DNA of 64,000 nucleotides from a virus. Lineage: Duplodnaviria; Caudoviricetes. The DNA lies in IMG/VR virus record IMGVR_UViG_3300043434_000734, positions 96,001-160,000 of that record; one strand, given 5' to 3'. Both the position numbers and the translations under genes were made by a program. This document shows, in pieces, positions 47,951-59,839 of this stretch. The stretch's first letter is position 1, and each line of letters opens with the position of its first letter. The notes under the pieces were generated by a model. It ran no database searches, was not told the DNA's origin, and saw only the letters and a program-made list of their open reading frames with translations.

Positions 47951-48023
47951 GGGCCTGATGTCAACGGCAGACCATCTGATTTGCAATCAGAATGAATGGG
48001 TTCGATTCCCACAGCGTCCACCA
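47951..48023 (+). tRNA. tRNA-Ala(TGC), bulged acceptor stem, encoded CCA
   Basis: tctga-tttgcaa-tcaga; G3:U70. Confidence 0.8.
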
Positions 48024-48026
48024 AAT

Positions 48027-48099
48027 TGGAATGTAGCTCAATGGTGAGAGCATCCGCCTGATACGCGGAAGGTTATAAGTTCGAGTCTTATCATTCCAA
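48027..48099 (+). tRNA. tRNA-Ile(GAT)
   Basis: tccgc-ctgatac-gcgga; full cloverleaf. Confidence 0.95.
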
Positions 48100-48104
48100 C
48101 ATTG

Positions 48105-48177
48105 GGAACTTTGGTATAGCCGGTGCGTACGTTGGACTGAAAATCCGAAGGAACAAGTTCGATTCTTGTAGGTTCCA
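48105..48177 (+). tRNA. tRNA-Phe(GAA)
   Basis: ttgga-ctgaaaa-tccga. Confidence 0.9.
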
Positions 48178-48240
48178 CAAATAAAGTAAAATTTGAACGA
48201 TAAAGTTAATCACTTTATTAAACAGAAATAACTTTATTAT

Positions 48241-48314
48241 GACCTCTTAGCTCAGTTGGTTAGAGCACCTCACTTTTAATGAGGGAGTCCCGCGTTCGAG
48301 TCGCGGAGGGGTCA
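48241..48314 (+). tRNA. tRNA-Lys(TTT)
   Basis: cctca-cttttaa-tgagg. Confidence 0.95.
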
Positions 48315-48319
48315 CACAC

Positions 48320-48392
48320 ACGGGTATGGTGAAAATGGTTATCATTTTAGTCTCCAAAACTAAAGTTCCTGATTCGAGTTCAGGTATCCGTG
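48320..48392 (+). tRNA. tRNA-Trp(CCA)
   Basis: ttagt-ctccaaa-actaa. Confidence 0.92.
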
Positions 48393-48453
48393 CAAATGTT
48401 CGATTTTTTTAGTCCGTTTCGAACTTTCGTGATATTTATAAATAAAGAACATT

Positions 48454-48993
48454 ATGAAAGAAGAAATATTAAAATTAAGAAATGAAGGTAAAACATTTAA
48501 CCAAATAAAAGAAATAATAAAATGTTCTAAATCTACAATTTCATATTATTGTAGTGAAGGGCAAAAAGAAAAAACAAAAATTAGAACTAAAAAGAGGAGA
48601 GAAAACATTATAATTGATAAATTAGAAAGATTTAAATATAGAAAATCTAAATCGAATAAAGAACGAATTAGAAAATTCAATAAAAGAGATAATCAAATGG
48701 ATGGATTAGTTAACAAAAAAATAGAAATTACATTCACATTTGAAGATGTTATCAAGAAGTTTGGTTATAGTACTGTTTGTTATCTTTCCGGAGAAAAAAT
48801 AAATTTAAATGAAAACACATACCATTTTGACCATATTTTACCATCAAGTAGAGGTGGTGATAACACATTAGAAAATTTAGGTGTTACACACGAAATTGTA
48901 AATAAAATGAAAGGGGACTTAACACCAAAGGAACTTATTCTTTGGTGTGAAAAAATTTTGAAATATAATGGATATGATGTAAATAAAATTTAA
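48454..48993 (+). mobile_element. HNH homing endonuclease with N-terminal HTH
   Basis: CYLSG...HFDHILPSSRGG.NTLENL...VNKMK. Confidence 0.88.
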
Positions 48994-49039
48994 TATTATG
49001 AAAAAAGAATTCGATATGCATTAGTTAAACTAATCGCAT

Positions 49040-49243
49040 ATGACAAACAAAGAGTACAGAGTAAAGAGAATGAAACAATCACACGATTATTGTTTCATAT
49101 GTCAGAAGAGAAATGGAAGTTGGTATTATGATTGCTCCCCAACTTTTGTTCACGGAAGACACGGTAATGGGAAACCGATTGAATCTCATAAAAGAAGAGA
49201 GTATAGAAGTTGGAAGTACAACAGAAAAACTCAATGGAAGTAA
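49040..49243 (+). CDS. Small basic hypothetical protein
   Basis: 67 aa with CxxC. Confidence 0.55.
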   Translation: MTNKEYRVKRMKQSHDYCFICQKRNGSWYYDCSPTFVHGRHGNGKPIESHKRREYRSWKYNRKTQWK

Positions 49244-49272
49244 TGTTTACTATTAACAGTAAACAGTAAACG

Positions 49273-49344
49273 GGTCTCTTGGTGTAACGGATAGCACGAA
49301 ACACTACGGATGTTTTAGTAAGGGTTCAAATCCTTTAGAGACCT
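49273..49344 (+). tRNA. tRNA-Arg(ACG)
   Basis: aaaca-ctacgga-tgttt. Confidence 0.92.
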
Positions 49345-49405
49345 CAATGTTCACAAATTTTTAATGTTCACGTTCCGTGAACAAACAAAAAAAGTGAACA
49401 AAAAA

Positions 49406-49476
49406 GTCAGGTTGGCCGAGCGGCTAGGTGAAGGTCTGCAAAACCTTTAAGATAGGTTCGACTCCTATACTTGACT
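49406..49476 (+). tRNA. tRNA-Cys(GCA)
   Basis: aaggt-ctgcaaa-acctt; U73. Confidence 0.93.
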
Positions 49477-49481
49477 CTTAT

Positions 49482-49553
49482 GGTGTTTGAAGCTTTAAGG
49501 TGAAGCACGAGTTTGTGGAGCTCGGGAAGACGGTTCGATACCGTTCATACACC
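49482..49553 (+). tRNA. tRNA-His(GTG)
   Basis: cgagt-ttgtgga-gctcg; G-1:C73. Confidence 0.92.
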
Positions 49554-49558
49554 CATAT

Positions 49559-49629
49559 TGCGGGGAGGAAGGTTCCCGACCAGTCTCATAAGCTGTGTCT
49601 CCCGAGTTCGATTCTCGGCCCCGCAACCA
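49559..49629 (+). tRNA. Atypical tRNA-Met(CAT): initiator-like acceptor, short D-arm
   Basis: tgcgggg/ccccgca-acca; ctcataa loop. Confidence 0.7.
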
Positions 49630-49680
49630 AAAAGTTTTAAAAATAATTTGAAATAATTTCGGATATTCGTATTTATTTCT

Positions 49681-49688
49681 TACATTTG
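49681..49688 (+). promoter_or_regulatory. Bacteroidota-type -7 element TACATTTG
   Basis: Same tacatttgtaaaacaataa context as 56016. Confidence 0.75.
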
Positions 49689-49709
49689 TAAAACAATAAT
49701 GACAGAAAA

Positions 49710-49838
49710 ATGGCGAAAGCACCGAGAACATCGAAAAGAGTTGGTAAAGTGGCAAGTAAAGCATTAAGAAGTAAAAAAAGTAGCAAGACAACAAAAACTC
49801 TTGCGGGAAGTTCTTTGAGACAACGGAGAAAAAAGTAA
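49710..49838 (+). CDS. 42-aa highly basic peptide (MAKAPRTSKRVGKVASKALRS...)
   Basis: Below the ORF-track cutoff; promoter and A-rich start upstream. Confidence 0.65.
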   Translation: MAKAPRTSKRVGKVASKALRSKKSSKTTKTLAGSSLRQRRKK

Positions 49839-49843
49839 AATAA

Positions 49844-49915
49844 GCCTCTTAAGCATTGCAGGCGATGCGCCAGATTTGTAATCTGGATAACTCGGTTCGA
49901 TTCCGGGCGGAGGCT
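49844..49915 (+). tRNA. tRNA-Thr(TGT)
   Basis: ccaga-tttgtaa-tctgg. Confidence 0.9.
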
Positions 49916-49916
49916 C

Positions 49917-50375
49917 AACAAGTGACGACTGTGGTGTAACCCCACGGTATATAAATCCCAAAGAACTGTCTTGATTCGCGATATCAGAGCAGTGAGGGTA
50001 GAGTTTACTATAAGCGGGGAGTAATTAACCCAATGCGAAAATGTAACCACCAAGTGTAGAGATATATTTGGTTATGATGTACAGAAGGGTACAAAAAACT
50101 TGTTAATTTATTAATTTAGATTCTGATAACTTATAACTAAAGTTTTACTTAAACAAAGGTTATGGAGCAATTTGAGAAATGTTGTTATCACTAAGAATGT
50201 AAATTAATAAAGTTTGATTACGTTAGGTATGTAGTTTAAAAAGAACAATGTCCTAATAGATGAAGGTGTGAGTAATCACCTTACTTAACGTAATTTAAAT
50301 TTAAAACTAACTCAACGAGGACTTTGTTAACCAGAGCAAGACTTGGATGGTGCAACTTAAGGTGAGTTAGAATTT
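49917..50375 (+). ncRNA. Putative ~460-nt structured RNA of unknown class
   Basis: No + strand ORF; helices 50217-27/50284-94, 50263-68/50277-82, 50307-14/50363-70. Confidence 0.5.
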
Positions 50376-50376
50376 T

Positions 50377-50448
50377 GGTCCTGTAGTTAATCGGCTATAA
50401 TATTGCCCTGTCACGGCAAAGTGCCGGGTTCGATTCCCGGTGGGACCG
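50377..50448 (+). tRNA. tRNA-Asp(GTC)
   Basis: ttgcc-ctgtcac-ggcaa. Confidence 0.93.
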
Positions 50449-50672
50449 CAATGAGTAAGAGATACTCAATAGTCTTTAATCCAAGACTCATTTAACAATG
50501 GATGGTGGTTTGTAGTATCAACCTTAACGACTGCATATTGGGAACAAGGATTGTGGACCTACTCTCCCCCAAGTATTAGGTTGACGTTTTAACAGAGGGA
50601 TGCCTCGCAGGTTTTTGAGACAGACAAAAAACCGAAGTAACTACTCATCAGGAATCTCAAGGTGGGGAAAAT

Positions 50673-50760
50673 GGAGAGATGGTAGAGTTGGTCTATTGCA
50701 CCTGACTTGAAATCAGGAGTACTCGTGAGGGTACCGTGGGTTCGAATCCTACTCTCTCCG
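50673..50760 (+). tRNA. tRNA-Ser(TGA)
   Basis: cctga-cttgaaa-tcagg; long variable arm. Confidence 0.95.
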
Positions 50761-50876
50761 CTGTAGAGTTTGCCCGTGGTAACGGTCTGATAAGATACTT
50801 TCAGACTTCTCGCGTCAAAACCCAAAACACTGACCTACTGGTGCTTGGGCTAAATGTAGAAAAAAAACGGGATATT

Positions 50877-50964
50877 GGAGAGATGGCAGAGTTGGTCGAT
50901 TGCGTCAGACTTGAAATCTGAAGAACGGGAAACTGTTCCGTGGGTTCGAATCCTACTCTCTCCG
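50877..50964 (+). tRNA. tRNA-Ser(TGA), second copy
   Basis: tcaga-cttgaaa-tctga; long variable arm. Confidence 0.95.
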
Positions 50965-51063
50965 CGAACCAAAAGTCCAATGGGGAGGATCCACTACACG
51001 ATTAGCAATCGGAAGAGTAGATTAAGACTAAGGTTGCTTGACACTCCGGAAAGACGAGAAAAC

Positions 51064-51202
51064 AATCAAGTAGAGTGGTGGTACACTCACTATGTATGCA
51101 TCGTAAGATGGACGCCTTCTTCCCGCAGAGCACATAGATATGTCGTTTAGTGATATGGAAGAACACGGGAACGATTTGTAGGTTCGAATCCTATCTTGAT
51201 TG
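51064..51202 (+). ncRNA. Oversized tRNA-like RNA 1 (139 nt)
   Basis: Perfect 7-bp acceptor, D-arm and T-arm; 38-nt anticodon loop; 40-nt variable region. Confidence 0.7.
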
Positions 51203-51317
51203 CCTTTCCTTTCAGGGTAACGACCTGATAAATTTTGAGATACTAAAGTTGTAACACCAGGGACTCAACGAAAGAAAGTCGGAAACTAAACTTGACTGAT
51301 GGAAAGACATCAAATTT

Positions 51318-51447
51318 GGGAAGGTAGCAGAAATGGAAGATGCGTTATACGAAAGCTACGTATAAGACGCGATGACGGACACAAAAGTACAATGTGTTGA
51401 ACTAAAGATTACGCATCGTTATGGGTTCGATTCCCACTCCTGTCCCA
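51318..51447 (+). ncRNA. Oversized tRNA-like RNA 2 (130 nt)
   Basis: Bulged acceptor, D-arm, 7-bp anticodon-like stem, 55-nt variable domain, T-arm. Confidence 0.6.
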
Positions 51448-51648
51448 CAGGTCGTCTTTTTATATTGCTCAGTTTGTGGAGTTAACTTTAGAGACGTTAA
51501 ACTTAAAGTAATGAATCCAAGCCCTTTTAAAGTTGTGGTACAACTGGGTCCATTTCCTTACCGAAGGAGGTTTCCGGACCTAAAATAGAAGCCTCAAACG
51601 ACTGAAAAAAGTAGGGACATATGAGACTACCTAATCTCGTCCCGAAAT

Positions 51649-51720
51649 GGCCCTATCGACAAGCGGTTAAGTCACGTCCCTTTCACGGATGAGTCACGGG
51701 TTCGAATCCCGTTGGGGCTA
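51649..51720 (+). tRNA. tRNA-Glu(TTC)
   Basis: cgtcc-ctttcac-ggatg. Confidence 0.95.
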
Positions 51721-51735
51721 CTAAATGGTTTTACT

Positions 51736-51894
51736 ATGAAGAAGATTGTATTTTTATTGTTAGTAATGGTTACAATGAGTAGTTGTTTATATACAACATA
51801 TAGACGACCTTATTATCAACGATATCCGACTTATCAGAAACATTATCAACCAAATAAAAAATATAAACCTTACTTTAGACCAGGTCGTTGGTAA
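51736..51894 (+). CDS. Small Tyr/Arg/Pro-rich lipoprotein
   Basis: MKK-hydrophobic-MSSC lipobox. Confidence 0.75.
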   Translation: MKKIVFLLLVMVTMSSCLYTTYRRPYYQRYPTYQKHYQPNKKYKPYFRPGRW

Positions 51895-51948
51895 AAAATA
51901 TTTACTATTAAATTGAATTTTTATATATTTGTATATACTTATTAAGAA

Positions 51949-52053
51949 ATGAAGAACATAAATAACATATTGTCACTTAGTACTAGACCATTAAATAATG
52001 GTAACGGGTATGGTGTGCAACCCGTGAATTTATGTTCGGATACTCATATTTAG
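51949..52053 (+). CDS. Putative attenuator leader peptide 2 (MKNINNILSLSTRPLNNGNGYGVQPVNLCSDTHI)
   Basis: TATATTTG promoter at 51924; tgttcgg complementary to the terminator 5' arm. Confidence 0.55.
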   Translation: MKNINNILSLSTRPLNNGNGYGVQPVNLCSDTHI

Positions 52054-52075
52054 AAATTTAATTAATTAAAATATA

Positions 52076-52111
52076 GACCCGAACGACTTAAAAAATTGTT
52101 CGGGTTTTTTT
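52076..52111 (+). terminator. Terminator/attenuator before the second tRNA block
   Basis: gacccgaacga...ttgttcgggtt plus T-tract. Confidence 0.88.
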
Positions 52112-52142
52112 ATGTTATTTTTTTTCTTTATATTTGAAATGT

Positions 52143-52155
52143 AGTTCTTTGACAT
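52143..52155 (+). promoter_or_regulatory. boxA-like element AGTTCTTTGACAT
   Basis: Follows TATATTTG (52129-52136); similar copies at 49809, 56042, 59421. Confidence 0.6.
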
Positions 52156-52169
52156 TGTGGAAATGATTT

Positions 52170-52254
52170 GCTCGGGTGGTGTAATGGTAGCCACGAGGGA
52201 CTTAAAATCCCTTGGACAGAAACGTCCGTGCCGGTTCGAGTCCGGCCCCGAGTA
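52170..52254 (+). tRNA. tRNA-Leu(TAA)
   Basis: aggga-cttaaaa-tccct; long variable arm. Confidence 0.95.
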
Positions 52255-52369
52255 CAATGTAATGACTTAGAAATAAGTGACGGAACAGACGCTATGTATG
52301 AAATGGAAACGTTTGAAACATTTTAAAGATGTTGATTCGACACAAACCGTACAGACATTACATTAAATT

Positions 52370-52443
52370 GGTCCAATAGCTCAGCTGGATAGAGCAACTC
52401 TCTTCTAAAGAGTAGGTCTCAGGTTCGAATCCTGATTGGATCA
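52370..52443 (+). tRNA. tRNA-Arg(TCT)
   Basis: actct-cttctaa-agagt. Confidence 0.95.
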
Positions 52444-52588
52444 CGAAGATAATGGTTTTCACCACCTTACGGATGTCGACAATCCACGGTGGAATCTGAA
52501 AACAGCACCCTCTGCCGAGCGCTCGTAAAACTACGATTAAGCAGTTAAGATTGGAACGAGACGGGTATTCCAACATTATCTTTATTTT

Positions 52589-52661
52589 AGAGTAGTTGAC
52601 CAATCGGTAGGTCCCTTGCTTTGGGAGCAAGTGTGTGTAGGTTCGAGTCCTGTCTACTCTA
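52589..52661 (+). tRNA. tRNA-Pro(TGG)
   Basis: cttgc-tttggga-gcaag. Confidence 0.9.
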
Positions 52662-52668
52662 CAAAAAC

Positions 52669-52740
52669 GTTGGTATAGCTTAATGGTGAAGCATTCGGCT
52701 GTTAACCGAAAGACTGTAGGTTCGAGCCCTACTACCAACG
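52669..52740 (+). tRNA. tRNA-Asn(GTT)
   Basis: ttcgg-ctgttaa-ccgaa. Confidence 0.95.
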
Positions 52741-52747
52741 CAAAAAT

Positions 52748-52824
52748 ACCCGTATGGCGGAATTGGCATACGCGTCAGATTTAGGATCTGAATTTTGTAG
52801 GTTCGAGTCCTACTATGGGTACCA
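52748..52824 (+). tRNA. tRNA-Leu(TAG), short variable loop, encoded CCA
   Basis: tcaga-tttagga-tctga. Confidence 0.88.
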
Positions 52825-52870
52825 GGGATTGGTTGACACTAAACAACAAAACCAAAAGGAAGTGTAAAAT

Positions 52871-52954
52871 TGGAGGATGGGTGAGTGGCTAAAACCGGCA
52901 GACTGTAAATCTGCTCTCAGAACGGGTACGGGGGTTCGAATCCCTCTCCTCCAA
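52871..52954 (+). tRNA. tRNA-Tyr(GTA)
   Basis: gcaga-ctgtaaa-tctgc. Confidence 0.95.
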
Positions 52955-52968
52955 CAAAAACAAAAACT

Positions 52969-53616
52969 ATGGCAACATTAGAAACACAGTACAAGAATTA
53001 CTTAAAGTTGAATCCAGATTCAACATTCACATTTGAAGAATGGAAAGAAGATTTCGGTGGTAACGTGCTTAGACAAATGTCCGATATCTTAAAAGAAATC
53101 AAAACTCCTGAATATAAAGAAAGACGTATTAAGGAACACGAAGAACGTCTTAAAAATATTACAATGGATTATCAATTGGGACAATACGTTGGTGAGTACA
53201 TTGTAAGTCACAATCTTCCAACATTATCGACCGATATGATTCACTCTAATCGTGTGATTAAAGTGTCTGACGAAGAACAAACTGAATGTGAAAGATTGGA
53301 TGGTGAATATGTTAAATCATTGGAAGCCAATCAATGGAAAAATGGTGATAGTGAATTATTTGAAGCGTGGAAACAATATCGTAAGGTATTGGAAAAGAAA
53401 TATCTTCCACAAGTTTTAGAGTGTCATCTTAGTTTAATAAGAATTGATGACATAGTAAAATTTAAAGAAGGTTTATCTGATTGTCTTTGGAATTGTGATA
53501 TGTGTTCTTATGACATCAAAGAAGAAAACATCACAATTGAAAATGATTTACTTAACGGATTTACAATTATCAAATTTCAATATGATTCGAGTTGTAATGA
53601 TGAAATGAAAAAATAA
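52969..53616 (+). CDS. Hypothetical protein inside the tRNA array
   Basis: 215-aa ORF with A-rich start. Confidence 0.8.
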   Translation: MATLETQYKNYLKLNPDSTFTFEEWKEDFGGNVLRQMSDILKEIKTPEYKERRIKEHEERLKNITMDYQLGQYVGEYIVSHNLPTLSTDMIHSNRVIKVSDEEQTECERLDGEYVKSLEANQWKNGDSELFEAWKQYRKVLEKKYLPQVLECHLSLIRIDDIVKFKEGLSDCLWNCDMCSYDIKEENITIENDLLNGFTIIKFQYDSSCNDEMKK

Positions 53617-53667
53617 AATATCGTTTAAATATACGATATACGATTTTATCGTCTTAATAAACGATAT

Positions 53668-53741
53668 GGACTTGTAGCTCAGTAGGTTAGAGCAACTGAC
53701 TCATAATCAGTAGGTCCCTGGTTCGAGCCCAGGCTGGTCCA
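53668..53741 (+). tRNA. tRNA(CAT), elongator Met or Ile2 (lysidine)
   Basis: actga-ctcataa-tcagt. Confidence 0.9.
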
Positions 53742-53802
53742 CAAAGAGATTAGGATATTCCTTACCCGTCGCCTCGGGATGACATCGTCAGTCTCTTTAC
53801 AT

Positions 53803-53877
53803 AGAAGATTAGTTCAGTCGGTTCAGAGCATCTGTTTTACACACAGAAAGTCGGGGGTTCGAATCCCTCATCTTCTA
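53803..53877 (+). tRNA. tRNA-Val(TAC)
   Basis: tctgt-tttacac-acaga. Confidence 0.93.
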
Positions 53878-53946
53878 CAAAAAAATTGGGATTGGGTTAA
53901 TACTGATATGGAGGCAATTCCTGGTATTATCGCCGCCCAATTAAAT

Positions 53947-54022
53947 GCGAAAGTAGCTCAGTCGGTAGAGCACAACCTTGCCAAGGTTGGGGTCGCGAGT
54001 TCGAATCTCGTCTTTCGCTCCA
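53947..54022 (+). tRNA. tRNA-Gly(GCC), encoded CCA
   Basis: caacc-ttgccaa-ggttg. Confidence 0.96.
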
Positions 54023-54025
54023 TAT

Positions 54026-54098
54026 GCGAATATAGCTCAATTGGTAGAGCACTAGTTTTCCAAACTGGGGGTTGCAGGATCGTTCCCTGTTATTCGCT
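54026..54098 (+). tRNA. tRNA-Gly(TCC), atypical T-loop ATCGTTC
   Basis: ctagt-tttccaa-actgg. Confidence 0.88.
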
Positions 54099-54192
54099 CA
54101 ACTCAAGTACCCATACCGCTAACGATGGGCTAAGTAAGATACAAATTCGTACCACATTATTGTGGAGGCGGGAAGTAGAATGCTTGAGACAC

Positions 54193-54263
54193 TGTCCTTT
54201 GGTGTAACGGTAACACAATCGTTTTTGGTGCGATTATTTTAGGTTCGAATCCTAAAGGGACAA
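54193..54263 (+). tRNA. tRNA-Gln(TTG)
   Basis: atcgt-ttttggt-gcgat. Confidence 0.88.
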
Positions 54264-54278
54264 CTTAAATTTTTAAGT

Positions 54279-54509
54279 ATGAGTATTTTTGCAATTTACT
54301 ACGTAATATGTATTGCGTATTGTTTCTATCAATTAAATAAAAAATATAGAAACAGAGGTGTTGATTATGGAACATCACCAGAGTTAGATTCCATAATGGT
54401 TTTGGTTATGGCTTGGATTTTAGTGCCAATTGATGTGTCGATAACTTGGATACGAATGGTGAAAGAAGCAGAGGAGTCTAAAAGAAGACAAGAGAAACAA
54501 GTACTTTAA
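54279..54509 (+). CDS. Small 2-TM membrane protein
   Basis: Two hydrophobic segments. Confidence 0.7.
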   Translation: MSIFAIYYVICIAYCFYQLNKKYRNRGVDYGTSPELDSIMVLVMAWILVPIDVSITWIRMVKEAEESKRRQEKQVL

Positions 54510-54570
54510 CTAGTGGGCCACGGTGGTAGGCCAAAAGAAAAATAGATGTTTTTCATCCACCAAATTTTAT

Positions 54571-54656
54571 AGAGAGTTACCCAAGTTGGTGAAGGGGCCT
54601 GTTTGCTAAACAGGTAGGATGTTAAAGTCGCAAGGGTTCGAGCCCCTTACTCTCTA
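54571..54656 (+). tRNA. tRNA-Ser(GCT)
   Basis: cctgt-ttgctaa-acagg; variable arm. Confidence 0.9.
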
Positions 54657-54661
54657 CACAT

Positions 54662-54811
54662 TGTAGTGTGACGAAACTTGGCAGACGTGCCCTCCTGTCT
54701 CGGGGGTGTGGAACAAGAAATAGGTTAATAATATGGGGTAGACCACCAGCCGGCCGGCGAAGTGTTATTAACTGAATCTCCATTTAAGTGGTTCGAATCC
54801 CTTCACTACAG
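54662..54811 (+). tRNA. Oversized tRNA with Asp(GTC) anticodon and 79-nt variable arm (150 nt)
   Basis: tgtagtg/cactaca acceptor; ccctc-ctgtctc-ggggg; 10-bp helix in the insert. Confidence 0.65.
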
Positions 54812-54848
54812 CACTAATAAACCAATAATTATAATAAATGAAAAAGTA

Positions 54849-55310
54849 ATGAAAAAATTCAGAACTCTCCACGGAACCCCAATTCCAGATGTAATCAATT
54901 ACATTAGAGAGTATATTTCAACAAGAGAGGATGTGGAAATTCTCATAGGATCAGATTCACAATCATATTCAAACAGGAAAACTGTTTATGGTGTTGTTAT
55001 TGCCCTTTATACAAAAGGTAAGGGTGCACACGTATTATGTACACGTGAGACATTACCTATGGAATATAATGTGGCATCGAGATTACTTGGTGAAGTTTGG
55101 AAATCAATTGAGATTGCTGAATTTTTAAAAGAGAATGGTTTACCAAAACCTACTTGGATTGATATTGACTTAAATCCCGACCCAAAATACAAATCAAATA
55201 ATGTTCTTAGACAAGCAGTTGGTATGGTTGAGGGTATGGGTTATAAAGTAAGGTACAAACACGTAGGTGCGTTAATGACATATGCCGCAAATCATTTAGT
55301 TAGGTTATAA
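54849..55310 (+). CDS. RNase H-like YkuK-family protein
   Basis: ILIGSDSQ, RLLGEVWKSIEIA, IDIDLN, AANHL. Confidence 0.8.
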   Translation: MKKFRTLHGTPIPDVINYIREYISTREDVEILIGSDSQSYSNRKTVYGVVIALYTKGKGAHVLCTRETLPMEYNVASRLLGEVWKSIEIAEFLKENGLPKPTWIDIDLNPDPKYKSNNVLRQAVGMVEGMGYKVRYKHVGALMTYAANHLVRL

Positions 55311-55347: not shown

Positions 55348-55701
55348 ATGGTAAAACAACAAATTATAAATTTAACATATTCTTTAATGTTATTTTTACT
55401 CGGTTCGATAGGACATTGGTACATTATGTATTGGCAATTTAAAATGCCGAATTGGGTTAAGACCCCGTGGCCGTATTTGATATCAGTGGGTTGTACTTTT
55501 TTATGGATTACAGCATCCCATTATGGTGTTAAAGCATTCAACGGTGAAATGTGGAGTAATAGGTTTTTGTTCTTTGTAACAGGTATCATTATTGCGGCAA
55601 TGTTATATCCGTACCATTTCGGTCAACCATTTACAGTTAAAACGATGGTACAATTAATATTGGCATTTACCATAATATTAATTTCACTTTTTTGGAAATA
55701 G
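55348..55701 (+). CDS. 4-TM membrane protein
   Basis: Four hydrophobic segments. Confidence 0.75.
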   Translation: MVKQQIINLTYSLMLFLLGSIGHWYIMYWQFKMPNWVKTPWPYLISVGCTFLWITASHYGVKAFNGEMWSNRFLFFVTGIIIAAMLYPYHFGQPFTVKTMVQLILAFTIILISLFWK

Positions 55702-55752
55702 ATTTTTTTATTTGATTTTTATTTCTTATATTTTAATTATAAAGACAACAAT

Positions 55753-55980
55753 ATGAAATGTATTAAGGCAATTAAAGAAACTAAATCCTATTCATTAGGT
55801 GAAATTCGTAGAACTGATGACGTTGATGCTGACCAAAAAGTGGCTAGTGGTGTATGGACGTTTATTCCTAAATCAGAATGGAAAGTAAGTAAGAAAGGTA
55901 AAAAAGAAGAAGTGGAAATTACTCACGATATGGGTGGTTCTATTGAAGTAAAAAAAGAAAAGAAAAAAAATAAAAAATAA
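55753..55980 (+). CDS. Small basic hypothetical protein
   Basis: 75 aa. Confidence 0.7.
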   Translation: MKCIKAIKETKSYSLGEIRRTDDVDADQKVASGVWTFIPKSEWKVSKKGKKEEVEITHDMGGSIEVKKEKKKNKK

Positions 55981-55992
55981 TTTAATTAATAT

Positions 55993-56023
55993 TTTGTTTT
56001 TATAAAAAGTATTCGTACATTTG
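55993..56023 (+). promoter_or_regulatory. Bacteroidota -33/-7 promoter (TTTG-N19-TACATTTG)
   Basis: Both consensus elements at consensus spacing. Confidence 0.8.
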
Positions 56024-56063
56024 TAAAACAATAAGAGAAAAAGTTCTTTGATTTAAAAATATT

Positions 56064-56870
56064 GGCCGCCTATGGTCGATTAAAATAAACCACGAAAGTG
56101 GGATAAAGTGACGAGTCCTTGGTTGGGACAAGTTGCGGTTTCAGTAATGGAACTTGAGTAGGCAAGTGGAGTATCGTTGAACCTTAAGTACTGAGGGTAA
56201 CACTTTAGGGAAAGTGGTTTGATGACTGAGCAATCCGAGTTGTTTGGTTGAGGTGGGAACACCAATAAGAATAATCCATAGAGTTATTGTGAGAAATATG
56301 GTTATCCGACTATATGATTACGTGATTCAATATGATGGGAATCTTAAAACCGAAAGGTATGGTGAAGTACGAGTGGTGTCGTTATCATCCTTTATTAAAC
56401 TCTACCAAGGGTTTAGTTTTGAAGGGGTCCAAAAATATGGTAGCAGGGATGTTACAGAGAGTAGTTTAGTATCGAGTCGCTCAAAAGGTGGCTTGGCTAG
56501 GTGACGAACCACTACTTTCCAAATTCGGATAACTAAATTTTGTTAATTTTGGTTTAACAACTTAAAATCATACAAGAAAAAGTGTTCGTCAGTCGTTGTA
56601 GACAGGTGGCTACATAGTCGTGAGGGGTTCACGGCCACAAAGGGTCTCAAGCCCAATGTGATTTTTAAAAAAGTTCTCTAAACCCGCAAGGTTGAATCAG
56701 GGAGGCATCTTTGATGAGTAATGAGTATTAAAAGAGTATATAACGACTCAAGGATTGGTTAATCTAATTGACCGCCGCTGATTGGTACTACTCAAAAGGT
56801 AGTGGATATGGGAAGAATCAAATAATGTCCCTAAGTCAATCAAAAAATGGTGTAATCTCAGCCCTTTCTT
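56064..56870 (+). ncRNA. ~800-nt structured RNA, GOLLD-like candidate
   Basis: GC-enriched, no credible ORF, many hairpins, long-range 5'/3' pairing, next to tRNAs. Confidence 0.65.
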
Positions 56871-56943
56871 TTTTCAATTTTGTGTAAAATTGAATGGTGG
56901 AATTAAGTACGATATTAAAAAACCGTGCGGCCCTCAACAAAAT

Positions 56944-56970
56944 TAGTCAGGAGAAATTCTGACTTTTTTT
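56944..56970 (+). terminator. Intrinsic terminator
   Basis: agtcag-gagaaatt-ctgact plus T-tract. Confidence 0.85.
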
Positions 56971-56988
56971 ATGCTCTATTTATTATAT

Positions 56989-57624
56989 ATGTTTGAAGTT
57001 AAAAAAGTAAAATCCTTAGACAATCAGTGTGTTAGTAACATAACAAATTTTTTAGATTCTTATGAATGGGATTCTAATGTTTTTAGTGTTGCAAACAACG
57101 ATACTGTTTATGTGAACAATAACAGAAAATCAGATGGTATAAACACCTTACGTGATTTATCAGAAACTGAAATAAATAAATTCGGTAATTCCGAATTATT
57201 AAACTGTTTAAGTGAAACGATTGAAATCATAAAAAATAATTTTAATCCTTCAATTATATGGTTAATGACATACCCACCTCACACTCGATTAAATTTTCAC
57301 GTAGATGATTCAAAAGAAAGACATATATTAACATTTAACGAAAATAATCGTTTTTTTAATTATGAATATGTACGTAAAATAATTAAAATAAATTCTTTAA
57401 TTTATGTAAATGAAAGCTATCACGATAAAGAACAAGAATTTAATGATTTATTAAAAACTGAGAATTTAAATCTTGATTCTTTTAATGATTACTTTTCCAA
57501 ATTGGATAATACCCAAATAATCAATTTAGAAAAAAATTCAGTCTATTCGTTTGGTGATTCTTTACATAATTTCATAAATGGATCTAACAAATTAAGGATG
57601 ATTTTAGTTTTTGAAAATCTATAG
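56989..57624 (+). CDS. Probable 2OG-Fe(II) oxygenase-fold protein
   Basis: LMTYPPHTRLNFHVD...HNFINGS..RMIL; ATG 4 nt after TATTTATT. Confidence 0.55.
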   Translation: MFEVKKVKSLDNQCVSNITNFLDSYEWDSNVFSVANNDTVYVNNNRKSDGINTLRDLSETEINKFGNSELLNCLSETIEIIKNNFNPSIIWLMTYPPHTRLNFHVDDSKERHILTFNENNRFFNYEYVRKIIKINSLIYVNESYHDKEQEFNDLLKTENLNLDSFNDYFSKLDNTQIINLEKNSVYSFGDSLHNFINGSNKLRMILVFENL

Positions 57625-57665: not shown

Positions 57666-58418
57666 ATGAGAATAATTTGCATTTCCGACACACACAGTCT
57701 TCAAGATTTAATGACTCACCCGATACCCAAAGGTGATGTGTTAATCCATTCTGGTGACATTTCAAATAAAGGTGGTGAAAAAGATGTTACCAATTTTGTA
57801 CATTGGTTTCAAAATATTGAGGGTTTTAACTCTAAGATATTCATCGCTGGTAATCACGATTTTTGTTTTGAGAGAATTAATCAACCTTACCATAAAGGTG
57901 ATTACGATTGGTTAAATAATTTAATGTCACCAGAAAATTTATCACAATCAAACGTAACGTATTTGGAGGATAATGAATTAGTTATTGAATCACCCGAGTT
58001 TTCTAAACCAATCAAGTTTTATGGTAGTCCTTGGCAACCTAATTTCTGGGATTGGGCGTTTAACTTACCAAGAATGGGTGATGAAATAAAAAGTAAATGG
58101 GATATGATTCCTGACGATACTGACGTATTGATCACACACGGACCACCAAACGAAATTAGAGATTTTGTAAGTAATTGGAGACAAGGTGATACGAACGTTG
58201 GTTGTGAATTATTAAGACACCAATTAGAGAATAGACTAAAACCATCTTTACACGTATTTGGACATATTCACGGAGCGTATGGTGCCGCGTTAATTAAAGA
58301 TACACTTTATGTTAATGCATCAATTTGTACTGAAAGATATGAACCATCAAATAAACCAATCATTGTTGACTTAGAAGAAGTCGAAGGTAAAATAATTGCA
58401 AGTTATGTCGAAGAATAA
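57666..58418 (+). CDS. Metallophosphoesterase (MPPED-like)
   Basis: ISDTH, HSGDI, IAGNHD, THGPP, HVFGHIH. Confidence 0.93.
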   Translation: MRIICISDTHSLQDLMTHPIPKGDVLIHSGDISNKGGEKDVTNFVHWFQNIEGFNSKIFIAGNHDFCFERINQPYHKGDYDWLNNLMSPENLSQSNVTYLEDNELVIESPEFSKPIKFYGSPWQPNFWDWAFNLPRMGDEIKSKWDMIPDDTDVLITHGPPNEIRDFVSNWRQGDTNVGCELLRHQLENRLKPSLHVFGHIHGAYGAALIKDTLYVNASICTERYEPSNKPIIVDLEEVEGKIIASYVEE

Positions 58419-59085
58419 TGAAGTGGTTAGTGTTGTAATATCAACACGTAAAATAGACGAGACTTATGTTAGTCACGTTAAAAAAATGTTTTCACACCCA
58501 AAGACCCAAATTCTCATTTATGAGAACGACGGAGAGAAATCATTAACCCAAATGTATAATATTGGATTAAAAGAATCGGTAAATAATATTGTGGTGTTTA
58601 TGCACGATGATCTTATTTTGGAAACGACCAATATAACTCCAAAGATTACTAAGATGTTCGAAAAACATCCCGAATATGGTATTATCGGTATTGCTGGCAC
58701 CGATAAATTAACCAGCGGGATGTGGTGGCAAAATAGGGATAATATGTTTGGTGTTGTTGGTCATCTACATCAAGGTAAACGTCACATTAATCGGTATTCT
58801 AAGGGGGTTTTTAACGACGTTCTTAAAGATGTGGTAGTTGTGGACGGTTTATTCTTTATTGTTCATAAGAATCGAATTAAGAAGGAATTTAACGAAGAGT
58901 TTGAAGGATTTCATTTCTATGATATCTCATTCTGTGTTGAAAACCATTTAGAAGGGGTTAAAGTGGGTTTAACCACTAAATTTGAAGTAACTCACAAGTC
59001 AATTGGAGAAATCAATAAGAAGTGGGAAAAGAATAAATTATTCTTTGAGGCATTATATAGTAAATCCTTACCGTTAACCACTTGA
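58405..59085 (+). CDS. Glycosyltransferase family 2-like protein
   Basis: YNIGLKES...VFMHDDL, DGLF, FHFYD. Confidence 0.8.
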   Translation: MSKNNEVVSVVISTRKIDETYVSHVKKMFSHPKTQILIYENDGEKSLTQMYNIGLKESVNNIVVFMHDDLILETTNITPKITKMFEKHPEYGIIGIAGTDKLTSGMWWQNRDNMFGVVGHLHQGKRHINRYSKGVFNDVLKDVVVVDGLFFIVHKNRIKKEFNEEFEGFHFYDISFCVENHLEGVKVGLTTKFEVTHKSIGEINKKWEKNKLFFEALYSKSLPLTT

Positions 59086-59371: not shown

Positions 59372-59403
59372 GAGGGTTAAAATTAGTTTTTTAACCCTTT
59401 TTT
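59372..59403 (+). terminator. Intrinsic terminator
   Basis: agggttaaa...tttaaccct plus T-tract. Confidence 0.8.
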
Positions 59404-59406
59404 GTT

Positions 59407-59433
59407 TACCTTTGTTTTATAGTTCTTTAACAT
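59407..59433 (+). promoter_or_regulatory. -7 element TACCTTTG plus boxA-like AGTTCTTTAACAT before tmRNA
   Basis: Direct sequence match. Confidence 0.7.
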
Positions 59434-59435
59434 AT

Positions 59436-59836
59436 GGGGATGTCTGGTATTGATTTCAGGTATCAGGGATAAATGGCACGTAGTCAGAATTCATCTATGA
59501 CTTAAATCCACGGTGAAACATTTTAGACGGCAACGTTTACAACAATATGGAAATTGCAGGTTTACTTGCAACTTCTAAAGTAGCGGCCTAACCAAGTTAG
59601 CACTACACTCGGGTCGATGTACATATAACCTAGGAACAGAAGTACTTAAGGTGTGATACCACCTAAGAGTGTCAAAGGTCTCGTTCAGAGGGCTACCTTA
59701 AAGTGAACTCGACACAGTTATAGGGAACGATGTTAAAATAGGAACCTTTTATTTGTCTGTTGTGAACTAACAGAATAAACGTGTAGTCATTTATTGTTGA
59801 ACAGGAAAGACACGGGTTCGACTCCCGTCATCTCCA
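59436..59836 (+). ncRNA. ssrA: tmRNA; tag GNVYNNMEIAGLLATSKVAA* (59529-59591)
   Basis: ggggatg/catctcc-a acceptor with G3:U70, T-arm acggg-ttcgact-cccgt, tag ending VAA. Confidence 0.93.
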
Positions 59837-59839
59837 CAT

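What the first reader, a model, noticed from the sequence alone, without database searches (positions are those of the whole stretch)
56016..56875. ~800-nt GOLLD-like giant RNA with its own promoter and boxA in a Bacteroidota phage
A full -33/-7 promoter and boxA precede ~800 nt of GC-enriched non-coding sequence. It contains GNRA hairpins (ccac-gaaa-gtgg, acc-gaaa-ggt), a repeated UCAAAAG loop (gtcgc/gtggc and ctac/gtag), and 5' ggtcgattaa (56074-83) pairs with ttaatc...gacc (56759-73). Known: GOLLD RNAs are ~800 nt, phage- and tRNA-associated, and of unknown function. The family call rests on size, context and architecture only.
Basis: partly seen in the sequence, partly recalled or inferred. 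Interest (0 to 1): 0.75.

Follow-up and report, generated by a model that had tools for sequence, protein, structure and literature searches.

The report
Phage GOLLD RNA with rRNA-style leader
This gene-free 0.8 kb of a T4-like lake phage encodes an ordinary full-length copy of GOLLD, a known giant phage RNA that builds protein-free cages. It sits behind the same promoter-plus-boxA signal that Bacteroidota bacteria place in front of their ribosomal RNA genes.

Summary
Window 56064-56864 (+) is a full-length GOLLD RNA gene. Rfam RF02032 matches 56457-56864 end to end (314 bits, cut-off 150). The 5' half is the same type as env-38, the GOLLD whose 14-mer cage was solved by cryo-EM. An alignment of 33 diverse phage homologues gives 197 consensus pairs, 144 with compensatory changes.

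The proposed 5'-3' closing helix is not conserved and clashes with a covarying local hairpin.

The boxA motif is the one found in 16S leaders and 16S-23S spacers of three Bacteroidota genomes. It precedes 73 of 76 distinct GOLLD upstream regions, and in this window it also precedes a tRNA block and the tmRNA. Freshwater metatranscriptome contigs from three studies lie on 56082-56882.

Verdict: a new member of a known family, and the cage's function is still unknown. I did not find the rRNA-style leader in print. However, this scan has already reported GOLLD with a boxA leader on other phage genomes (133 notes hold both words). Interest is moderate to low.

The parts
55993..56023 (+). Bacteroidota-type promoter: -33 TTTG (55993-96), 19-nt spacer, -7 TACATTTG (56016-23). 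Predicted start near 56030.
   Evidence: Pattern match. The same layout is kept in the closest relatives L046, L075, L087, L092, L094 and L052. Caveat: the bare pattern is not enriched in the window (3 found, 3.9 expected).
56043..56051 (+). boxA-like element GTTCTTTGA in the leader
   Evidence: Exact match. GTTCTTT[GA]A lies 11-92 nt upstream of the GOLLD start in 73 of 76 distinct homologue upstream regions. The same motif is found in the 16S leader and 16S-23S spacer of three Bacteroidota genomes.
56064..56456 (+). GOLLD 5' domain (env-38 type; cap of the cage by homology)
   Evidence: Conservation begins at 56064. 106 consensus pairs, 75 compensatory. Colinear env-38 blocks.
56090..56101 (+). 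Invariant GAAA hairpin ccac-gaaa-gtgg
   Evidence: columns 40-43 / 48-51.
56349..56358 (+). GAAA hairpin acc-gaaa-ggt. It probably corresponds to env-38 L11a, the conserved non-bridging GAAA loop.
   Evidence: Covarying stem (columns 322-324 / 344-346). The L11a assignment is an inference from the text and the sequence.
56457..56864 (+). GOLLD 3' domain (Rfam RF02032, model 1-416)
   Evidence: 89 consensus pairs, 69 compensatory.
56476..56492 (+). First UCAAAAG hairpin (A-rich loop; L14-like)
   Evidence: Helix naming is inferred.
56520..56581 (+). Variable A/U-rich linker between the domains. It holds no tRNA here.
   Evidence: Unpaired, poorly conserved stretch of the Rfam alignment and of A2. 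No tRNA was called there.
56681..56715 (+). Two adjacent hairpins with loops CGCAA (56685-89) and GGCA (56705-08). They are candidates for the P21a/P21b symmetric kissing loops of the 14-mer.
   Evidence: The first loop switches GCAA<->TCGA among homologues, as the paper describes for L21a. The review links P21b to the 14-mer form.
56757..56773 (+). Local hairpin GGUUAA-UCUAA-UUGACC.
56788..56802 (+). Second UCAAAAG hairpin (L26-like)
56849..56863 (+). 3'-terminal hairpin with the invariant loop GUAAUCUCA (L27-like)
56865..56882 (+). U-rich tract, the likely 3' end of the transcript
   Evidence: A T-run follows the last hairpin in nearly all homologues. Whole RNA contigs end at 56881 and 56882 (X14 and X11, one study), and a relative's contig ends at 56863 (X18). 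This is a weak hint.
56945..56971 (+). Strong intrinsic terminator (8-bp stem plus T7). It is either a back-up stop for GOLLD or belongs to the small ORF 56894-56962.
   Evidence: Conserved in L075, L094 and L052.

Best explanation
Window 56064 to about 56866 (+) is the gene of a roughly 800-nt GOLLD RNA in a T4-like freshwater phage, probably of Bacteroidota.

Shown:
- family membership
- the two-domain architecture with a variable linker
- strong covariation in both domains
- a conserved promoter-boxA leader
- presence of exactly this stretch in metatranscriptome assemblies

Inferred:
1. Host sigma-A RNA polymerase starts at the -33/-7 promoter, near 56030.
2. The nascent leader exposes boxA (56043-51). 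This recruits host NusB/S10 and the other Nus factors, as on rRNA operons.
3. The long, untranslated, heavily folded RNA is therefore completed despite Rho and folds while it is being made.
4. The leader is trimmed to the conserved 5' end at 56064.
5. Transcription stops in the U-tract after the last hairpin (56865-82), with 56945-71 as a back-up.
6. By homology with env-38, the RNA assembles without protein into a D7 14-mer cage. The 5' domains form the caps, the 3' domains the rings, and the linker 56520-81 points inward.

What the cage does is unknown. The setting among 24 tRNAs and a tmRNA points to translation.

The confidence given (0.85) is for the core: a genuine, expressed GOLLD gene behind a conserved rrn-like leader. 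I put Nus-dependent antitermination at about 0.55-0.6 and 14-mer cage formation at about 0.7.
For: Family:
- Rfam GOLLD, full model, 314 bits against a cut-off of 150.
- The two nearest phage records also score 275 and 287 bits.

5' domain:
- The env-38 construct starts AUGGCCGCUAUGGUC... and runs colinear with the window.
- Two env-38 16-mers occur at 56153-56208 with the same 24-nt spacing.
- A 29-nt 5'-domain motif occurs in at least 118 viral contigs, 771-806 nt before the 3' motif.

Structure: 197 pairs, 144 compensatory. Both domains far exceed slid controls.

Cage: env-38 forms a 14-mer, and the window keeps both P21a- and P21b-like hairpins.

Leader:
- Promoter and boxA.
- boxA is kept in 73 of 76 upstream regions, against a background of 0.115 per kb.
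- The same motif sits at -91, -97 and -101 from the 27F site of the 16S gene and again in the 16S-23S spacer of Bacteroidota genomes.
- It resembles the NusB-binding B. subtilis boxA, AUGAUCUUUGAAA.
- Across the phage loci, 143 of 247 motifs lie within 120 nt upstream of a GOLLD, tRNA or tmRNA gene, against about 7 for random positions.

RNA: four metatranscriptome runs from three studies give contigs on 56082-56882. One is a whole 774-nt contig with 1 mismatch.

Phage: Gp23, Gp20 and TerL.
Against: - No transcription start or 3' end was measured. Only assembled contigs were available, and these cannot show ends, strand or level.
- No laid RNA contig reaches into the leader. It is therefore open whether boxA is transcribed with GOLLD and then cut off, or whether another start lies next to 56064.
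- The bare -33/-7 pattern is no commoner in the window than chance.
- In the window, GTTCTTTG lies 19 nt after a TTTG, so it could itself be read as a weak -7 box.
- Nus binding and cage formation are inferred from homology only.
- Oligomer number varies within the family: 12 in S. agalactiae and 14 in env-38.
- The host assignment is indirect. The only genome hit is a 2-kb contig binned into a Bacteroidetes MAG.
Confidence: 0.85

Rival explanations
1. GTTCTTTGA is not an antitermination signal in the RNA. Instead it is a DNA promoter element: a degenerate -7 box paired with TTTG 56020-23, or the site of a phage-encoded factor. On this reading GOLLD is initiated directly just upstream of 56064.
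For: In the window, TTTG (56020-23), 19 nt and GTTCTTTG (56043-50) fits the -33/-7 spacing. A full-length RNA contig of a relative begins exactly at the conserved GCCGCC. In some phage loci the motif follows directly on a terminator with no recognisable promoter between them.
Against: In most homologues the motif lies 42-92 nt from the GOLLD start, with a TAnnTTTG box commonly 26-28 nt further upstream (30 of 73). That is a promoter-then-boxA order. The identical extended motif (GTTCTTTGACATATTG) sits in 16S-23S spacers, where boxA is expected and a promoter is not. It lacks the TA of the -7 consensus.
Confidence: 0.15
2. The stretch is a long structured 5' leader or attenuator of the downstream genes (56971 onward), not a free-standing RNA.
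For: It is on the same strand as the downstream ORFs, and a small ORF plus terminator lies between them.
Against: Whole RNA contigs end at 56881/56882 and none bridges into 56971 onward. A T-run follows the last hairpin in nearly all homologues, and what lies downstream varies (a tRNA in L001, L014, L018 and L074). GOLLD acts as a discrete RNA in the solved cases.
Confidence: 0.04
3. It is a new RNA class that only resembles GOLLD in size and context.
For: None after testing. The 5' half is not covered by the Rfam model.
Against: Full-length Rfam hit at twice the gathering score. The 5' half is colinear with env-38.
Confidence: 0.01
4. The region is protein-coding (for example the 86-aa TTG ORF 56244-56504).
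For: An ORF of 86 aa exists.
Against: Substitutions among 33 homologues preserve base pairs, and indels are not in threes. The ORF spans covarying helices of the 5' domain and the start of the Rfam-modelled domain.
Confidence: 0.01

Closest known systems
GOLLD RNA env-38 (JCVI_SCAF_1096627009515/1239-410; cryo-EM D7 14-mer, PDB 9MEE; Kretsch et al. 2025, PMC12286853)
   Same: Same two-domain plan, the same 5' start (GGCCGC.UAUGGUC), and colinear conserved blocks in the 5' domain. The GAAA loops, the two A-rich CAAAAG loops, the P21a/P21b-like hairpins and the GUAAUCUCA 3' loop are all present. It lies near tRNA genes.
   Different: About 800 nt against 833 nt, with several shorter hairpins (for example acc-gaaa-ggt where env-38 has a longer stem). 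Freshwater rather than marine. The oligomer state was not measured. I did not compute a full-length identity, because the env-38 sequence could not be brought in by reference.
Streptococcus agalactiae GOLLD (700 nt, dodecamer, PDB 9L0R; reviewed in PMC12990946)
   Same: Same Rfam family and the same conserved 3' domain.
   Different: It lacks P9, P11a-c and P21b and forms a 12-mer. The window has the env-38-type 5' domain and a P21b-like hairpin. Different host phylum.
ROOL RNA (Rfam; phage- and tRNA-associated cage-forming RNA)
   Same: A large ornate phage RNA near tRNA islands that forms RNA-only cages.
   Different: Unrelated sequence and fold. There is no ROOL hit in the window at gathering score.
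Bacterial rrn operon leader and spacer boxA (Nus-factor antitermination). Phage precedents: lambda nut and the boxA behind the T7 early promoters (PMC3709561).
   Same: A promoter followed by a boxA that is identical to the boxA-like motif in Bacteroidota rrn leaders and spacers. Many homologues also have a hairpin just before boxA. Phage use of host boxA is in print for T7.
   Different: The cargo is a GOLLD RNA (and, in this phage, tRNAs and a tmRNA) rather than rRNA or early mRNAs. There is no leader-trailer processing helix. Nus dependence is untested.

Membership tests
GOLLD RNA (Rfam RF02032) | Scores above the curated gathering threshold against the family covariance model, over the whole model | tested here: met
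   314.2 bits against 150, model 1-416 of 416, E 4.3e-89, window 56457-56864
GOLLD RNA (Rfam RF02032) | Conserved 3' domain helices supported by covariation, including two CAAAAG loops and the GUAAUCUCA terminal loop | tested here: met
   89 pairs, 69 compensatory, 96.7% canonical against 37-46% in slid controls
GOLLD RNA (Rfam RF02032) | A structured but less conserved 5' domain upstream, joined by a variable linker, about 800 nt in all | tested here: met
   5' domain 56064-56456 with 106 pairs, 75 compensatory. Linker 56520-81. 771-806 nt from motif to motif in 72 copies. Colinear with env-38.
GOLLD RNA (Rfam RF02032) | Phage or prophage location, often beside tRNA genes | tested here: met
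   T4-like Gp23, Gp20 and TerL. 24 tRNAs at 47951-54657 and a tmRNA at 59436.
GOLLD RNA (Rfam RF02032) | Made as a discrete RNA | tested here: inconclusive
   Metatranscriptome contigs of 3 studies lie on 56082-56882. Contigs cannot prove ends, strand or level.
GOLLD RNA (Rfam RF02032) | RNA-only homo-oligomeric cage (12- to 14-mer) | not testable with these tools
   Inferred from env-38 and S. agalactiae structures. Needs mass photometry or cryo-EM.
rrn-type boxA antitermination leader | Sequence equals the host group's rrn boxA | tested here: met
   GTTCTTTGA at 56043-51. The same motif is found in 3 of 3 Bacteroidota 16S leaders, and GTTCTTTGA in 2 of 3 spacers. 11 of 13 positions match the B. 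subtilis boxA consensus, by my comparison with the sequence quoted.
rrn-type boxA antitermination leader | Conserved position between promoter and the RNA gene across relatives | tested here: met
   73 of 76 distinct upstream regions. A TAnnTTTG box lies 26-28 nt upstream in 30 of them.
rrn-type boxA antitermination leader | boxA lies within the transcript (downstream of the start site) | tested here: inconclusive
   Predicted from promoter geometry only. No laid RNA contig includes the leader.
rrn-type boxA antitermination leader | Binds NusB/S10 and confers resistance to termination | not testable with these tools
   Needs binding and transcription assays.
rrn-type boxA antitermination leader | Leader-trailer helix flanking the mature RNA (as for 16S and 23S) | tested here: not met
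   Upstream 40 nt against downstream 60 nt in 32 homologues: mean z +0.3 against shuffles. This feature belongs to rRNA processing, not to boxA function.

The most novel reading that the evidence does not exclude
Large lake phages of Bacteroidota copy the host's rRNA-operon leader (promoter, often a hairpin, then boxA) in front of all their stable RNAs: GOLLD, tRNA blocks and tmRNA. On this reading GOLLD synthesis, and perhaps its co-transcriptional folding into the cage subunit, depends on the host Nus antitermination/chaperone complex. That would give the first handle on how GOLLD is made in cells, and a genetic lever (boxA mutants) for asking what it does.
Probability: 0.55. Interest if true: 0.5.

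Novelty: new member of a known kind. Interest (0 to 1): 0.35.

Why it matters
GOLLD is one of the largest bacterial and phage non-coding RNAs. Its cage structure is solved but its function is unknown. This copy adds little to the family itself.

What is useful:
1. It places an env-38-type GOLLD in an identifiable T4-like phage with a probable Bacteroidota host.
2. It shows the RNA in several lake metatranscriptomes.
3. It shows that this whole clade of GOLLD genes is wired like a host rRNA operon.

The third point makes a concrete, testable statement about GOLLD biogenesis: Nus-dependent, Rho-resistant, with chaperoned folding. It also links GOLLD with the phage's tRNAs and tmRNA as one class of 'stable RNA' cargo.

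Tried and rejected
Rejected on comparative counts.
- **Leader-trailer (RNase III-type) helix flanking GOLLD.** No complementarity above shuffles.
- **Exact or near-exact env-38 5' end in viral contigs or in the window.** No match. I therefore compared env-38 by short blocks only.
- **Whole genome of the window.** Not held.
- **GOLLD in 151 sampled Bacteroidota genomes.** Not found in those searched. The control genomes rang nowhere, so this says nothing about absence.
- **16S in the MAG that holds the one genome hit.** None found. I used relatives instead.
- **Uncovered stretches.** No laid RNA contig lies on 55400-56065 (which includes the leader) or on 56954-57600.
- **One low-depth RNA contig in X17** joins 56424 to 56610, skipping 185 nt (depth 5). 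It is unexplained and possibly an assembly artefact.
- **blastn against phage records.** It found only the 5' half in two huge phages. The 3' halves were recovered only with the covariance model.
- **Literature.** Among the listed results, no paper links GOLLD with boxA, antitermination or NusB. Weinberg 2009 and Morgado 2020 are not held.
- **boxA with one mismatch across the window.** Not enriched: 33 found, 31 expected. Only the exact motif and its positions carry weight.

Full report
**Observation**

- *Coding potential.* The sequence 55990-56980 has no ORF longer than 86 aa on either strand.
- *Composition.* GC is 0.37-0.41, against 0.22-0.33 on either side.
- *Promoter and boxA.* A perfect match to TTTG-N19-TAnnTTTG lies at 55993-56023. 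GTTCTTTGA lies at 56043-51.
- *Hairpins.* The two GAAA hairpins (56090-56101, 56349-58) and the two UCAAAAG hairpins (56476-92, 56788-56802) are present. All four stems are kept, with compensatory changes, among homologues.
- *Fold energy.* The lone-sequence fold is modestly better than shuffles (z -2.9).

**Identity**

Rfam's GOLLD model (RF02032) matches 56457-56864 over its whole length at 314 bits, against a gathering score of 150 (E 4e-89). No other large-RNA family matched. That model covers only the conserved 3' domain.

For the 5' half I used three lines of evidence.

1. blastn against phage records found the 5' half in two huge uncultured phages, LR756502 and LR745206. Their downstream sequence also scores as GOLLD. 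The three align over about 800 nt, from window 56064 to 56864.
2. A 29-nt motif of the 5' half occurs in at least 118 IMG/VR viral contigs. In 72 complete copies it always lies 771-806 nt before the 3'-terminal TAATCTCA motif; in the window the distance is 777 nt.
3. The sequence of env-38, the GOLLD solved by cryo-EM, is printed in the paper's supplement. It starts AUGGCCGCUAUGGUC... and runs colinear with the window through the 5' domain. Two of its 16-mers occur in the window with the same 24-nt spacing.

So this is a full-length GOLLD with the env-38-type 5' domain.

**Structure**

Thirty-three homologues, each under 92% identical to the others (58-97% to the window), were aligned. RNAalifold gives 197 pairs, 144 with compensatory changes.

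| Domain | Pairs | Canonical | Compensatory | Slid controls |
|---|---|---|---|---|
| 5' domain | 106 | 96.8% | 75 | 23-36 compensatory, about 40% canonical |
| 3' domain | 89 | 96.7% | 69 | 19-36 compensatory, 37-46% canonical |

One caveat applies: the structure was derived from the same alignment.

Only 56% of cells pair, and its centre pairs in 2-7 of 33 sequences. Its 3' arm forms the Rfam local hairpin, which shows a clean GC<->AU swap. This fits the solved structure, in which the 5' and 3' domains are separate bodies.

**Setting**

The window is part of a T4-like phage. It carries a Gp23 capsid protein, a Gp20 portal and a T4-type large terminase. It also has 24 tRNA genes (47951-54657) and a tmRNA (59436-59839), all on the + strand. 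Runs that hold the stretch are mostly labelled freshwater metagenomes, from 12 studies.

**The leader**

GTTCTTT[GA]A lies 11-92 nt upstream of the conserved GOLLD start in 73 of 76 distinct upstream regions. The background is 0.115 per kb. A TAnnTTTG box commonly sits 26-28 nt further upstream (30 of 73), and often a small hairpin lies between them.

To learn what the motif is, I used the one genome hit of the GOLLD motif, a 2-kb contig binned into a Bacteroidetes MAG. From it I reached related genomes and fetched three 16S loci.

- All three carry GTTCTTTGA about 91-101 nt before the 27F site, in two of them directly after a hairpin.
- All three carry the motif again in the 16S-23S spacer: GTTCTTTGACATATTG in two, and GTTCTTTAA in two (one locus has both).

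That is the classical placement of boxA. The motif is also close to the NusB-binding boxA of B. subtilis (AUGAUCUUUGAAA) and to the E. coli consensus (gamma-proteobacterial consensus GYTCTTTAANA).

In the window the exact motif occurs three times, always on the + strand and always just before an RNA gene:

- 56043, before GOLLD.
- 52144, as TATATTTG-N7-boxA-N17-tRNA-Leu.
- 49810, 25 nt before tRNA-Thr, with no promoter seen.

The variant GTTCTTTAACA, a perfect fit to GYTCTTTAANA, sits between a TACCTTTG box and the tmRNA.

Over all phage loci, 143 of 247 motifs lie within 120 nt upstream of a GOLLD, tRNA or tmRNA gene. Random positions give about 7. The loci were chosen for GOLLD and are partly redundant, which inflates the GOLLD count.

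**Expression**

Six metatranscriptomes hold the stretch. I laid four of them, from three studies. Their contigs lie on 56082-56882:

- a whole 774-nt contig with one mismatch, 56109-56882;
- a whole 622-nt contig ending at 56881;
- a 797-nt contig of a close relative that begins at the conserved GCCGCC and ends at 56863.

Contigs cannot prove ends, strand or abundance, so I read this only as 'the RNA exists', plus a weak hint that it ends in the U-tract.

**Mechanism**

Shown: family, fold, conserved leader, presence as RNA.

Inferred:
1. Host RNA polymerase starts near 56030.
2. boxA in the nascent leader recruits NusB/S10 and the rrn-type antitermination complex. This protects a long untranslated RNA from Rho and is known to aid rRNA folding.
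3. The leader is removed to give the conserved 5' end.
4. The RNA assembles into a 14-mer cage like env-38, since both P21a- and P21b-like kissing hairpins are present.

The main rival is that the motif is a promoter element and that GOLLD starts directly at about 56064. I give this 0.15. It fits the window's spacing. It does not fit the variable 42-92-nt distance in most homologues, nor the motif's presence in rRNA spacers.

**Comparison and novelty**

GOLLD is a described family with solved structures, so the RNA itself is a new member of a known kind. Phage use of host boxA is also known, for lambda nut sites and for T7 early transcription. I found no paper linking GOLLD with boxA or antitermination.

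This scan has already noted the same GOLLD-with-boxA arrangement on other phage genomes: 133 notes hold both words, in at least 112 genomes. My results agree with those notes and were obtained independently of them.

**Verdict**

The element is ordinary, with one moderately interesting and testable feature: the rRNA-style leader.

Noticed in passing
window 59401-59839: A phage tmRNA (tag GNVYNNMEIAGLLATSKVAA) sits directly behind a terminator, a TACCTTTG box, 7 nt, and GTTCTTTAACA. That last element is a perfect fit to the boxA consensus GYTCTTTAANA and lies 5 nt before the gene.
   Followed up: partly
window 52080-52170: A terminator hairpin is followed by TATATTTG, 7 nt, GTTCTTTGA, 17 nt and tRNA-Leu. 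This is a second promoter-boxA unit, heading a tRNA block.
   Followed up: partly
window 49810-49818: A third exact GTTCTTTGA lies 25 nt before tRNA-Thr. No promoter is visible, and it apparently lies at the end of a lysine-rich reading frame. It could be chance or read-through boxA.
   Followed up: no
window 56875-56971: Between GOLLD and the next gene lie three features: a covarying hairpin (56875-92), a 22-codon ORF (56894-56962, with the start ATGGTGGAAT invariant in L075, L094 and L052, and an in-frame indel), and a strong terminator overlapping its stop. It is possibly a leader-peptide attenuator for the 56971 gene.
   Followed up: partly
L122 (MAG contig CAIJZG010000155.1, 2092 bp): The only genome-contig hit. 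It is a short contig binned as 'uncultured Bacteroidetes' that carries a tmRNA, a tRNA and then the 5' end of a GOLLD. It looks like a phage fragment rather than host DNA.
   Followed up: partly
L001 3820-3892; L014, L018, L074 downstream flanks: In several homologues a tRNA(-like) sequence begins within about 10-25 nt of the GOLLD 3' end. RNase P cleavage could therefore set the GOLLD 3' end there. The window has no tRNA at that place.
   Followed up: no
A2 columns 325-343 (L018, L019, L043, L055): Four homologues replace the GAAA loop of the 56349-58 hairpin with an extra 13-15-nt stem-loop. This is a variable site on the surface of the 5' domain.
   Followed up: no
window 56424/56610 in run X17: One low-depth RNA contig joins 56424 to 56610. 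That removes the end of the 5' domain, the first 3'-domain hairpin and the linker (185 nt). It may be an artefact or a deletion variant.
   Followed up: no
window 54762-55310 and 57666-59085: The neighbouring genes are an RNase H-like protein, a calcineurin-like phosphoesterase and a family-2 glycosyltransferase. None is an obvious GOLLD partner.
   Followed up: no
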